Shown piece after piece: positions 29,845-32,705 of a DNA stretch of 64,000 nucleotides. This DNA comes from the human T2T-CHM13v2.0 reference genome, Homo sapiens: the NCBI RefSeq assembly GCF_009914755.1, contig NC_060947.1. The stretch is one strand, 5' to 3'. The position numbers and the translations under genes were made by a program. The notes beneath the pieces were generated by a model, which ran no database searches, had not been told where the DNA came from, and worked only from the letters and a program-made list of their open reading frames with translations. Within the stretch, counting starts at the first letter, position 1, and each line of letters begins with the position of its first letter.

Positions 29845-30227
29845 AGAAAACCCAATTGTCTCAGCCCAAAATCTCGTTAAGCTGATAAGCAACTTCAGCA
29901 AAGTCTCAGGATAAAAAATCAATGTGCAAAAATCACAAGCATTCCTATACACCAATATTAGGGAAACAGAGAGCCAAATCATGAGTGAACTCCCATTCAC
30001 AATCACTACAAAGAGAATAGAACACTTAGGAATACAATTACAAGGGATATGAAGGACCTCTTCAAGGAGAACTACAAACCACTGCTCAAGGAAATAAGAG
30101 AGGACACAAACAAATGGAAAAACATTCCATGCTCATGAATAGTAAGAATCAATATCGTGAAAATGGCTGTACTGCCCAAAGTAATTTATAGATTCAACGC
30201 TATTCCCATCAAGCTACCATTGACTTT

Positions 30228-30455
30228 TTTTTTTTTTTTCCCGTCTTCGTGTTTATTTCTTTCATCTTTTCCATTTTACGAGAGATGCTCATTTCAACAA
30301 CCAGATGGCAGATGTGACGGGAGAAGTGTCAAGGCCAGGAGTTTGAGACCAGCGTGAGCAACAGAGCAACACAAGTAGGAGAGCCCAGCTGAAAGAAATG
30401 GAAGAGGAGGAGGAGGAGGAGGAGGAGGAGGAGGACAAGGGGGGTGCGGGGGGGA
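30228..30455 (-). pseudogene. Processed retrocopy of a non-L1 polyadenylated RNA, likely rDNA intergenic spacer, nested in L1 ORF2
   Basis: Poly-T at 30225-30239; AATAAA on the minus strand at 30252-30257; TSD gacttt at 30222-30227 and 30456-30461; L1 sequence resumes exactly afterwards. The IGS identity is from recall of the human rDNA unit. Confidence 0.75.
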
Positions 30456-32705
30456 GACTTTCTTCACAGAATTATAAAAAACTACTTTTAATTTCATATG
30501 GAACCAAAAAAGAGCCCGTATAGCCAAGACAATCCTAAGCAAAAAGAACAAAGCTGGAGGCTACCTGACTTCAAACTATACTACAAGGCTACAGTAACCA
30601 AAACAGCATGGTACTGGTACCAAAACAGATATATAGGCCAATGGAGCAGAACAGAGGCCTCAGAAATAACACCACATATCTACAACCATCTGATCTTTGA
30701 CAAACCTGACACAAACAAGCAATGGGGAAAGGATGCCCTATTCCATAAATGGTGTTGGGAAAACTGGCTAGCCATGTGCAGAAAACTGAAACTGGACCCC
30801 TTCCTTACACCTTATACAAAAATTAACTCAAGATGGATTAAAGACTTAAATGTAAGACCTACATCCATTAAAAACCCTAGAAGAAAACCTAGGCAATACC
30901 ATTCAGTACATAGGCATGGGCAAAGACTTCATGACTAAAACCCAAAGCAATGGCAACAAAAGCCAAAACTGACAAATGGGATCTAATTCAACTAAAGAGC
31001 TTCTGCACAGCAAAAGATGCTATCGTAAGAGTGAATGGGCAACCTAAAGAATGGGAGAAAATTTTTGCAATGTATCCATCTGACAAAGGACTAATATCCA
31101 GAATCTACAAGGAACTTAAACAAATTTACAAGAAAAAAACAAACAACCCCATCAAAAAGTGGGTGAATGATATAAACAGATACTTCTCAAAAGAAGACAT
31201 TTATGTGGCCAACAAACATATGAAAAAGAGCTCATCATCACTGGTCATTAGAGAAATGCAAATCAAAACCACAATGAGATACCATCTTACACCAGTTAGA
31301 ATGGCAATCATTAAAAAGTCAGGAAACAATAGATGCTGGAGAGGATGTGGAGAAATAGGAATGCTTTTACACTGTTGGTGGCAGTGTAAATTAATTCAAC
31401 CATTGTGGAAGACAGTGTAGCAATTCCTCAAGGATCTAGAGCCAGAAATACCATTTGACCCAGCCATCCCATTACTGGGTATATACCCAAAGGATTATAA
31501 ATCTTTCTACTATAAAGACACATGCACATGTATGTTTATTGCAGCACTATTCACAATAGCAAAGACTTGGAGCCAACCCAAATGCCCATCAACAATCGAC
31601 TGAATAAAGAAAATGTGGCACATATACACCTTGGAATACTATGCAGCCATAAAAAAGGATGAGTTCATGTCCTTTGCAGGGCCATGGATGAAGCTGGAAA
31701 CCATCATTCTCAGCAAACTAACACAGGAACAGAAAACCAAACACCCCATGTTCTCACTAATAAGTGGGAGTTGAACAATGAAACACATGGATGCAAGGAG
31801 GGGAACATCACACACTGGGGCCTGTCGGGGGGTGGAGGGCTAGGGGAGGGATACCTAATATAGATAACGAGTTGATGGGTGCAGCAAACCACCACAGCAC
31901 GTGTATACCTACTTAACAAACCTGCACGTTCTGCACATATAGCCCAGAACTTAAAGTATAATTTAAAAAAAAATCTTTATTTGACTGGTTTGAGGTCAAA
32001 GTATTCACTGAATGGAGACATGATGTTCACTGTTTGTCCGTGATATCTTAAAACACATAGGCCTTCTTAGAACCAAGAGGAATGCCATAAAATTCACTGA
32101 ACATGACACTGAAAGCCTTTGGTTCTAGTACCTTTTCTGTCAGTTCTTAGGCAAGTCAATTCCCCTCTCTGAGTTTCAGTTTCTTCATTTATAATATAAA
32201 AGAGTGGAAATGGAACTAGATTATCTCTAAGGTCCCGTCTAATGGTACGTGATTCTGGGAACAAAATGAAATCTGAGCCCACTTAGAATTTGTCCTCACA
32301 TTCTAGAATCTCAAACTACAGTTCCTAGAAGAGTCACATGCAGGCAGGGTTTTGAAAATAGCAAGCAATTCTGACTGCTTTGTGATGCTAACATTTTGTA
32401 TTATCCAGCCTATGAGCTCTTTTGTGAATAACACTTGATATTGCATGGTGAAAATGATAGAAGCCAAGATGCTCTCAGGCTGGACACTGGCAGCAAATAG
32501 GTTGTAAGTAGAAATACTTGAGGAGAAGAAAGCCAGAGACCAAGGCATTGCTCACACTGGGGAGGCTGAGGTCTTGAGATAAGGCCAGAATATTAATGTT
32601 AGTAGACCCCTAACATTCTCCTGGGTTAGATCTGGAGACCATTGGGAACCCTCAGATTTAAGATTGCCACTTTCATTTCTGTTGTCATATTTGTGTTCCT
32701 CAGGA

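What the first reader, a model, noticed from the sequence alone, without database searches (positions are those of the whole stretch)
30222..30461. Retroposed, polyadenylated rDNA intergenic-spacer RNA hidden inside L1 ORF2
Seen: a 230-bp foreign insert interrupts L1 at 'ccattgacttt|cttcacag' with gacttt duplicated. On the minus strand it reads C-rich/(CCT)n, unique sequence, a 40-nt antisense Alu remnant, AATAAA, 12 nt, then A15. It keeps several CpGs while its L1 host is CpG-depleted, so it looks younger than the host. Recall: 'ttctttcagctgggctctcctac...gaaatgagcatctctcgtaaaatggaaaagatgaaagaaataaacacgaagacgg' is proximal human rDNA IGS (roughly 15-19 kb in the unit), where it continues without poly(A). 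Inference: a sense IGS transcript was cleaved and polyadenylated at this AATAAA in the germ line and mobilised by L1. It would be a fossil of an mRNA-like nucleolar spacer RNA and possibly one member of an unannotated retrocopy family. It could also mis-attract rDNA reads.
Basis: partly seen in the sequence, partly recalled or inferred. Interest (0 to 1): 0.85.

Follow-up and report, generated by a model that had tools for sequence, protein, structure and literature searches.

The report
Retrocopy of ribosomal spacer RNA on chrX
A 216-base piece of the spacer between human ribosomal RNA genes was copied through a polyadenylated RNA into an old L1 element on chromosome X, a lone fossil showing that this spacer once gave an mRNA-like transcript in the germ line.

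Summary
Window 30240-30455 (sense on the minus strand) is a 216-bp copy of the rDNA intergenic spacer. It is followed by an A run of 15 and flanked by a duplicated gacttt inside L1 ORF2.

- **Source:** it matches the rDNA arrays at 213 of 218 aligned bases. The source lies 5.3-5.6 kb past the 28S 3' end, about 18.5 kb into the unit, on the rRNA-sense strand.
- **No templated tail:** the source continues with AAAG and then unique sequence.
- **Poly(A) signal:** the tail starts 12 nt after an AATAAA. This is the only AATAAA or ATTAAA in the 7,061 sense-strand bases after 28S.
- **Divergence:** three of the five substitutions are CpG decay in the chrX copy.
- **Clean insertion:** five of five other L1 copies run unbroken across the site.
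- **No family:** the 31-nt 3' end (up to 3 mismatches) occurs 219 times forward and once in reverse in the genome. The 100 listed forward places all lie in tandem arrays, and 219 is the published repeat count. The reverse hit is this copy.

Sense poly(A)+ transcripts over this zone are already published (Agrawal & Ganley 2018). This is therefore a new, single member of a known kind, an L1-made processed retrocopy. It could not be dated because no primate genomes are held.

The parts
30222..30227 (.). Left copy of the 6-bp target-site duplication gacttt. These are L1 ORF2 bases and occur once in other L1 copies.
   Evidence: In 5 of 5 other L1 copies the two flanks are contiguous and their alignments overlap at this hexamer.
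30228..30239 (-). Poly(A) tail, seen as T's on the + strand. There are 12 A's beyond the duplication. The whole run, 30225-30239, is 15.
   Evidence: It is absent from the source: rDNA reads AAAG then unique sequence.
30240..30455 (-). 216-bp body copied from the rDNA intergenic spacer, in rRNA-sense orientation. It corresponds to C13:7577501-7577736, 5.3-5.6 kb past the 28S 3' end.
   Evidence: 213 of 218 aligned bases are identical. The 5 substitutions include 3 CpG-to-TpG/CpA changes in the chrX copy.
30252..30257 (-). AATAAA poly(A) signal, 12 nt upstream of the A run.
   Evidence: Its rDNA counterpart is the only AATAAA or ATTAAA in the 7,061 sense-strand bases after 28S.
30332..30362 (+). 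Alu-like remnant already present in the rDNA spacer. It is antisense relative to the spacer transcript.
   Evidence: 24 of 31 bases match the Alu at 29533-29815, with score 27 against a maximum of 24 in 300 shuffles. The same stretch is in the rDNA units.
30404..30435 (-). (CCT)n tract. Its length varies between rDNA arrays.
   Evidence: The chr13, chr14 and chr15 units differ in repeat number.
30436..30455 (-). C-rich 5' end of the copy, the point of 5' truncation or the RNA 5' end. The source continues upstream with a pyrimidine tract and an Alu.
30456..30461 (.). Right copy of the target-site duplication gacttt.
29900..30221 (+). Host L1 ORF2, left flank.
   Evidence: 87.5-90.1% identity to 5 other L1 copies.
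30462..31020 (+). Host L1 ORF2, right flank.
   Evidence: 91-93% identity to the 39 best other copies; window 30537-30875 aligns to L1 ORF2 protein residues 864-976.

Best explanation
This is a single, dead-on-arrival processed retrocopy. I propose four steps.

1. A transcript of the rDNA intergenic spacer, in the same sense as the rRNA, ran through the region 5.3-5.6 kb past the 28S gene.
2. It was cleaved 11-14 nt after the only AAUAAA in that part of the spacer and received a poly(A) tail.
3. L1 endonuclease nicked the + strand of an old L1 ORF2 on chrX after gacttt. The T's at the nick primed on the poly(A) tail, and L1 reverse transcriptase copied the RNA back for 216 nt.
4. Copying ended in the C-rich/(CCT)n tract, and repair left a 6-bp duplication.

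Shown here: the rDNA origin, strand and position; the untemplated tail; the signal; the duplication; and that the copy is unique.

Inferred: that cleavage was by the canonical machinery (and hence probably on a Pol II transcript); that L1 did the copying; and that the 5' end is a truncation and not a true RNA start.

The copy has no evident function. Three of its eight alignable source CpGs have decayed.
For: - **Source.** 96% BLAST identity to tandem units spaced 46,970 bp on C13. The units carry SSU, 5.8S and LSU rRNA and the pRNA promoter element on the same strand. 213 of 218 aligned bases are identical.
- **Sampled units.** Units from three arrays (chr13, chr14, chr15) agree with each other against chrX at the four differences in the unique part. 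All three continue GACGG-AAAGCACGGTGTG.
- **Untemplated tail.** The 3' end plus an A run (up to 2 mismatches) was found only at chrX and at one unrelated L1 site on C14. No rDNA unit has it.
- **Signal.** One AATAAA or ATTAAA lies in the 7,061 sense bases after 28S, 11 nt before GACGG|AAA. A random 3' end would fall 10-30 nt after it about 0.3% of the time. A G/T-rich stretch follows the cleavage point (GGTGTGAACGTTTCTCTTG).
- **Insertion.** 5 of 5 other L1 copies are unbroken at the site, with gacttt present once. The nicked strand ends in TTT.
- **Direction of change.** Three of the 5 substitutions are CpG to TpG/CpA in chrX, as expected for a methylated dead copy.
- **Published transcripts.** Agrawal & Ganley 2018 (PMC6281188; passages; Tables S10 and S12-S14) report sense poly(A)+ transcripts over 'zone-1', about 14.8-21.1 kb, in all their cell lines. 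The exons include 16406-19665 (K562), 16406-19585 and 17825-19059 (HepG2).
- **RefSeq lncRNA.** LOC100507412/NR_038958 is described as reaching about 20 kb of the unit (PMC7464196, passages).
Against: - The duplication is short (6 bp). The nick site, TTT|CT, matches the L1 endonuclease preference as I recall it (TTTT|AA) only on the T side.
- The copy has one G more than today's units before the tail (GACGGG against GACGG). This needs a substitution, an untemplated base or a lost source variant.
- No published transcript model that I read ends at this site. In H1-hESC and some HepG2 models the site lies in an intron (17659/17672 to 19355/19368).
- The site lies between the conserved blocks c13 (18084-18168) and c14 (19198-19239) of Table S8. 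It is therefore not in a phastCons block.
- Which polymerase made the RNA is not shown. Nucleolar non-canonical poly(A) polymerases also exist (TENT4b; review PMC11505599, passage).
- Only chr13, chr14 and chr15 units were read. Chr21 and chr22 were not.
Confidence: 0.88

Rival explanations
1. The retrocopy came from a Pol I read-through or spacer transcript. Its tail was added by a non-canonical nucleolar poly(A) polymerase (TRAMP-like, TENT4b/PAPD5) at a breakdown end. The AATAAA is then a coincidence.
For: Most transcription in the rDNA is by Pol I, and the copy is in rRNA sense. The review PMC11505599 (passage) cites work in which TENT4b adds tails to small rRNA fragments in nucleolar bodies. 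The published zone-1 transcript models do not end at this site.
Against: The tail starts 12 nt after the only AATAAA or ATTAAA in 7,061 bases, which has about a 0.3% chance for a random end. A G/T-rich element follows at the usual distance. Agrawal & Ganley argue that their zone-1 transcripts are not read-through (passage).
Confidence: 0.07
2. A piece of rDNA moved to chrX as DNA, for instance captured at a double-strand break or left over from a displaced rDNA unit. The A run arose locally.
For: Robicheau et al. 2017 (PMC5381670; abstract and passages) describe displaced, degraded rDNA including spacer at many non-array sites. They take the presence of spacer as evidence against reverse transcription.
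Against: The fragment ends exactly at a poly(A) site and carries an A run that the source lacks. It is flanked by a duplication of the L1 target. It sits at a T-rich nick site. No other spacer sequence adjoins it.
Confidence: 0.02
3. The RNA came from a stray copy of this spacer segment lying in an ordinary Pol II gene, not from the ribosomal arrays.
For: The first-look searches listed 235-237 candidates for this region, more than 219 units.
Against: The 31-nt 3' end with up to 3 mismatches occurs 219 times forward and once in reverse, with controls 0 and 0. The 100 listed places are all in tandem arrays on C13, C14 and C15. 219 is the rDNA repeat number stated for T2T-CHM13 (PMC10245113, passage). 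No other source copy survives today.
Confidence: 0.03

Closest known systems
L1-mediated processed pseudogenes and retrocopies of mRNAs and lncRNAs (for example RAC1P4, 2.6 kb away in this window)
   Same: It has a poly(A) tail absent from the source, a poly(A) signal just upstream, a target-site duplication, insertion at a T-rich nick and 5' truncation. It is dead on arrival and shows CpG decay.
   Different: The parent is not a single-copy Pol II gene. It is the spacer of the 219-copy rRNA gene arrays. The copy is very short (216 bp) and holds no exon junction, so splicing of the parent RNA cannot be read from it.
Retroposed rRNA fragments and rRNA/L1 chimeras (28S and 5S; Cell Genomics 2026, PMC13174262, passages read)
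   Same: It is an rDNA-derived RNA copied by the L1 machinery.
   Different: Those derive from mature rRNA, often lack a signal-directed tail, and are often fused to an L1 5' end. This one derives from the non-rRNA spacer, is not fused to a co-inserted L1, and ends at a canonical signal. The word 'spacer' does not occur in that paper's main text.
Displaced rDNA pseudogenes and the genome-wide 'rDNA-like signal' (Robicheau et al. 2017, PMC5381670)
   Same: It is spacer-derived sequence outside the arrays.
   Different: Those are explained as DNA-level relics, and the authors use spacer content as an argument against reverse transcription. This copy bears the marks of reverse transcription. Their main text holds none of the words retrotranspos-, poly-A, polyadenyl- or target site duplication.
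Sense poly(A)+ 'zone-1' spacer transcripts (Agrawal & Ganley 2018, PMC6281188) and RefSeq lncRNA LOC100507412
   Same: Same strand and same region of the unit. They are the likely parent transcription unit.
   Different: Those are RNA-seq assemblies whose listed 3' ends (19585-19873) appear, by my uncertain coordinate mapping (see Tried and rejected), to fall in Alu sequence. None ends at the signal used here. The retrocopy points to an internal, partly intronic poly(A) site.

Membership tests
L1-mediated processed retrocopy | 3' poly(A) tail that is not encoded at the source locus | tested here: met
   The A run of 15 (12 beyond the duplication) compares with AAAG in units of chr13, chr14 and chr15. 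No rDNA unit matched the 3' end plus an A run at up to 2 mismatches.
L1-mediated processed retrocopy | Target-site duplication flanking the insert | tested here: met
   gacttt lies at 30222-30227 and 30456-30461. It is present once in 5 of 5 other L1 copies, which are contiguous over the site. It is short, at 6 bp.
L1-mediated processed retrocopy | Insertion at an L1 endonuclease-type site (T-rich strand nicked, TTTT|AA as I recall it) | tested here: inconclusive
   The nick lies after gacTTT and before CT on the + strand. The T side fits and the purine side does not. The consensus is from memory, not from a call.
L1-mediated processed retrocopy | Poly(A) signal 10-30 nt upstream of the tail | tested here: met
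   AATAAA lies at 30252-30257, 12 nt before the run. It is the sole AATAAA or ATTAAA in 7,061 bases of source.
L1-mediated processed retrocopy | Introns of the parent removed | not testable with these tools
   The 216-bp copy is colinear with the genome and spans no reported exon junction.
L1-mediated processed retrocopy | Parent locus is transcribed on that strand | tested here: met
   This rests on print, not on data run here. Sense poly(A)+ models cover 16406-19665 (K562) and 17825-19059 (HepG2) (PMC6281188, Tables S13 and S14).
Sequence derived from the 45S rDNA intergenic spacer | High identity to array units at a fixed place relative to 28S | tested here: met
   213 of 218 bases match. 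The source lies 5,323-5,558 bp after the LSU rRNA match. The 31-mer occurs in 219 forward places. The 100 places listed lie at unit spacing on C13, C14 and C15.
Dispersed retrocopy family from this spacer site | Further copies ending at the same site, each with its own duplication | tested here: not met
   The whole-genome count was 219 forward and 1 reverse, with controls 0 and 0. With an A run added, only chrX and one chance L1 site matched. Copies more than about 10% diverged would be missed.
Displaced rDNA pseudogene (DNA-level) | Colinear continuation into neighbouring rDNA on both sides, with no tail and no duplication | tested here: not met
   Both ends abut L1 sequence directly. A tail and a duplication are present.

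The most novel reading that the evidence does not exclude
The copy is a datable fossil. It would show that the single canonical poly(A) signal in the first 7 kb of the human spacer was used in the germ line by a Pol II, CPSF-cleaved, mRNA-like sense spacer transcript. That signal would then be a real, partly intronic terminator of the 'zone-1' spacer lncRNA. Spacer RNA would also have had access to the L1 machinery, presumably by leaving the nucleolus. It would be the first described retrocopy of rDNA spacer RNA. It would also be a direct counter-example to the rule that spacer-derived DNA outside the arrays cannot come from reverse transcription.
Probability: 0.45. Interest if true: 0.5.

Novelty: new member of a known kind. 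Interest (0 to 1): 0.4.

Why it matters
- **Independent evidence for a spacer RNA end.** RNA-seq models of spacer transcripts are hard to trust, because reads map to hundreds of units and to Alus. A retrocopy records one RNA 3' end base by base without relying on read mapping. Here it points to the only AATAAA in 7 kb.
- **A testable site.** It gives a concrete position, about 18.5 kb into the unit, to test for cleavage, for polymerase choice and for germ-line expression.
- **A caveat for earlier work.** It shows that spacer-derived DNA outside the arrays can arise through RNA. This qualifies an assumption made in a survey of dispersed rDNA (PMC5381670).
- **A minor practical point.** A roughly 200-bp stretch about 97% identical to rDNA on chrX can draw or lose short reads. 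The string 135748, which starts both T2T-CHM13 coordinates of the insert, does not occur in the text of Table S1 of PMC10245113. The locus therefore seems absent from that table's list of masked rDNA-like regions.

Beyond that it is a neutral relic with no sign of function.

Tried and rejected
- **Rfam.** A scan of 29500-31200 at E up to 1 found only Alu/SRP-type matches at 29533-29815 and nothing in the insert.
- **Chance hit on C14.** The second hit of the tail pattern, C14:38191128, is an A-rich stretch in what looks like an unrelated L1 with no other rDNA similarity. I rejected it as chance. The backwards control of that pattern also gave 1 hit.
- **First-look counts.** Candidate counts of 237 upstream and 235 downstream of the cleavage point hinted at one further copy. 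The exact whole-genome pattern count did not bear this out.
- **Mapping the published exon coordinates.**
  - A first fit gave offsets that differ by 237 bp for one intron's two ends.
  - The chr14 unit does not carry such a length difference.
  - No single offset satisfied more than 5 of 19 GT/AG boundaries.
  - I therefore place the site only by distance from 28S and 18S. I assume 18S starts near 3.65 kb, which is recalled. The figure of about 18.5 kb carries roughly 0.25 kb of uncertainty.
  - I cannot say how close the HUVEC model 17226-18375 ends to the signal.
- **Pfam.** The L1 flank peptide matched 0 families. A search of PDB sequences identified it instead.
- **Primate rDNA sequences.** I wanted them to polarise the substitutions and test conservation of the signal. 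The supplement archive read holds only phastCons files. A string search of the 12 files it fetched, plus the few read before, found nothing, and 32 files were not searched. The FASTA and alignment files cannot be read here.
- **Table S1 of PMC10245113.** It holds no '135748' and none of six guessed chrX coordinate prefixes for three assemblies. Those prefixes were written with a space, and the table may use tabs, so one search is weak.
- **Unit sampling.** Small pieces of chr14 and chr15 were read instead. Chr21 and chr22 were not sampled.
- **Prior reports.** Four literature searches for a spacer retrocopy listed no paper describing one by title or abstract opening: plus on a spacer poly(A) signal. 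Subscription journals are mostly outside that library.
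Full report
**What is there**

On the + strand the L1 sequence reads ...ccatt gacttt. It is followed by T's to 30239, a foreign body at 30240-30455, a second gacttt (30456-30461), and then cttcacag....

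Read on the minus strand, the body runs in this order:
- a C-rich head;
- a (CCT)n tract;
- unique sequence, including a 31-nt Alu-like stretch at 30332-30362;
- AATAAA at 30252-30257;
- 12 further bases;
- an A run of 15.

The Alu-like stretch matches the nearby Alu at 24 of 31 bases and is antisense to the insert (score 27; none of 300 shuffles exceeded 24). Three of the 15 A's can be assigned to the duplication, so 12 are certainly extra.

**It is an insertion into L1 ORF2**

The right flank translates to residues 864-976 of the human L1 ORF2 protein (PDB 8uw3 and 8sxt, E about 1e-61). The break is therefore near residue 839.

I fetched five other L1 copies. In 5 of 5 the left and right flanks of the window align to adjoining positions, overlapping by 3-9 bases around a single gacttt. 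The hexamer was therefore duplicated by the insertion.

The host element is old. Its 559 bases right of the insert are 91-93% identical to the 39 best other copies in the genome. The left flank is 87.5-90.1% identical to the five copies.

**Where the insert came from**

A search of the window's own genome gave the window itself and then 39 equal hits at 96% identity. All were on contig C13, in tandem, 46,970 bp apart. Only 40 of 294 first-look candidates were scored.

Rfam places these features on the same strand upstream of one such hit:

| Feature | Position on C13 |
|---|---|
| pRNA promoter element | 7559026-7559115 |
| 18S, start | 7562818 |
| 5.8S | present |
| 28S | 7567096-7572178 |

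These are therefore rRNA gene units. The source segment, C13:7577501-7577736, lies 5,323-5,558 bp past the 28S 3' end, in rRNA sense. Taking 18S to start about 3.65 kb into the unit (recalled), the cleavage point is near 18.5 kb.

A global alignment gives 213 matches and 5 mismatches. The gtc/cct repeat is 21 bp shorter in chrX, and chrX has one extra G before the tail. Nineteen of 19 chr13 units fetched are identical over this stretch.

Units read from chr14 and chr15 agree with chr13 against chrX at the four differences in the unique part. They vary among themselves in the (CCT)n number and the C runs.

**The tail is not templated and sits at a real-looking poly(A) site**

After GAAGACGG the three arrays read AAAGCACGGTGTGAACGTTTCTCTTG.

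I searched the whole genome for the last 18 bases, one free base and seven A's, allowing up to 2 mismatches. It found only the chrX copy and one A-rich stretch in what looks like an unrelated L1 on C14, with no other rDNA likeness. The backwards control gave 1 hit.

In the 7,061 sense-strand bases from the 28S end to the end of locus L002 there is exactly one AATAAA or ATTAAA. It ends 11 bases before GACGG|AAA. That stretch is only 12% A, so such hexamers are rare by composition.

If the 3' end of the copy were placed at random in those 7 kb, it would fall 10-30 nt after the hexamer about 0.3% of the time (my arithmetic). A G/T-rich stretch follows within about 25 nt (highest G+T share in 15 nt is 0.73). 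This is the usual layout of a cleavage and polyadenylation site. That statement rests on established knowledge, not on a call.

**How it most likely arose**

- A sense spacer RNA was cleaved and polyadenylated at this site.
- L1 endonuclease nicked the + strand after gacTTT, and the T's paired with the tail.
- L1 reverse transcriptase copied 216 nt before the copy was cut short in the C-rich/(CCT)n tract.
- A second nick 6 bp away produced the duplication.

Shown: origin, strand, position, untemplated tail, signal, duplication.

Inferred:
- that L1 did the copying; the nick site fits its recalled preference only on the T side;
- that cleavage was canonical and hence probably on a Pol II transcript;
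- that the 5' end is a truncation.

**Age**

Three of the 5 substitutions are CpG to TpG/CpA in the chrX copy, while the arrays keep the CpG. Of 8 alignable source CpGs, 5 survive, and one new CpG arose. CpG observed/expected is 0.47 in the insert, 0.69 in the source and 0.15 in the host L1.

A divergence of 2.3% against a host that is several percent from its relatives suggests an event millions to a few tens of millions of years old. With five events, and with mutation rates taken from memory, this is only a rough bracket.

**No family**

The 31-nt 3' end, with up to 3 mismatches, occurs 219 times on the forward strand and once on the reverse, with both controls at 0. The window holds it exactly on the minus strand, so the single reverse hit is this copy.

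The 100 listed places are 76 on C13, 16 on C14 and 8 on C15, at unit spacing. A further 120 are not listed. The figure 219 is the number of rDNA repeats stated for T2T-CHM13 in PMC10245113 (passage).

There is therefore no second copy within about 10% divergence, and no surviving non-array source.

**What is already known**

- *Agrawal & Ganley 2018* (PMC6281188; abstract, passages, and Tables S8, S10 and S12-S14 read).
  - They describe sense poly(A)+ transcripts over 'zone-1', about 14.8-21.1 kb, in all their cell lines. Some junctions are shared with apes.
  - They argue these are not rRNA read-through.
  - K562 and HepG2 models include the site in an exon (16406-19665, 16406-19585, 17825-19059).
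  - H1-hESC and other HepG2 models place it in an intron (17659/17672 to 19355/19368).
  - None ends at it.
  - I could not map their coordinates base for base.
  - By that uncertain mapping, the listed 3' ends at 19585-19873 fall in Alu sequence in the CHM13 unit. They may therefore be limits of read mapping.
- *RefSeq lncRNA LOC100507412.* It is described as reaching about 20 kb of the unit (PMC7464196, passages).
- *Robicheau et al. 2017* (PMC5381670; abstract and passages). They survey dispersed rDNA and take spacer content as evidence against reverse transcription. Their main text lacks the words retrotranspos-, poly-A, polyadenyl- and target site duplication.
- *A 2026 catalogue of L1 chimeras* (PMC13174262, passages). 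It reports 28S and 5S fragments, and the word 'spacer' does not occur in its main text.
- *Searches for a prior report.* Three searches for a spacer retrocopy and one for a spacer poly(A) signal listed no paper describing either, judging by titles and abstract openings. Most subscription journals lie outside that library.

**Verdict**

The thing is a processed retrocopy, a known kind, with an unusual parent. It is a singleton without sign of function.

Its value is as an independent, base-exact record that the one canonical poly(A) signal of the proximal spacer was used on a heritable occasion. It also shows that spacer-derived DNA outside the arrays can come through RNA.

Interest is moderate (0.4). 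The decisive missing pieces are the outgroup sites and 3'-end data on a single rDNA unit.

Noticed in passing
window 29533-29815 (+): An Alu sits inside the same L1, about 400 bp left of the spacer insert. It appears as two partial Metazoa_SRP matches below the gathering score, plus mir-1268 and mir-3135 look-alikes. The L1 has thus taken at least two later retroposition hits, and the annotated RAC1P4 processed pseudogene lies at 33044-34028.
   Followed up: no
L021+L002 (C13:7572179-7579239): The first 7 kb of spacer after 28S has 12% A and 59% G+C. It holds just one AATAAA or ATTAAA on the sense strand. Any sense Pol II transcript starting near the rRNA terminator meets its first canonical signal only at about 18.5 kb.
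   Followed up: partly
PMC6281188, Tables S10 and S12-S14 (rDNA coordinates): The alternative 'introns' come in pairs shifted by the same 13 nt at both ends, which keeps the length fixed.
- 127 nt: 16278/16291 to 16406/16419 (also 16280 to 16408).
- 373 nt: 15808/15821 to 16182/16195.
- 161 nt: 17406/17419 to 17568/17581.
- 1,695 nt: 17659/17672 to 19355/19368.

This pattern may reflect alignment ambiguity or length variants between units, not alternative splicing. No single offset put more than 5 of 19 of these boundaries on GT/AG in the CHM13 unit.
   Followed up: partly
C13, C14 and C15 rDNA arrays: Unit spacing differs by array: 46,970 bp on C13, 44,272 on C14 and 42,527 on C15. The last C13 units are irregular (46,137; 47,655; 44,743; 44,885; 49,261 bp). 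The (CCT)n and C-run lengths at the 5' end of the source segment also differ between arrays.
   Followed up: no
window 30385-30403 (-) and L002:1543-1557: Inside the copied segment, the (CCT)n tract is followed by tttctttcag|CTGGG. This looks like a strong 3' splice site (pyrimidine tract plus CAG). None of the published exon starts that I read lies there.
   Followed up: no
window 29900-30230 against 30456-30800: Against the same five L1 copies, the left flank is clearly more diverged (87.5-90.1%) than the right flank (92.3-94.3%). The cause was not examined. It may be a difference in conservation along ORF2.
   Followed up: no
L022:5168-5257 and 2993-3082: Rfam calls a mir-663 match in the 5' external transcribed spacer and the pRNA element just upstream of the transcription start of the chr13 unit. 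These are ordinary features of rDNA.
   Followed up: no
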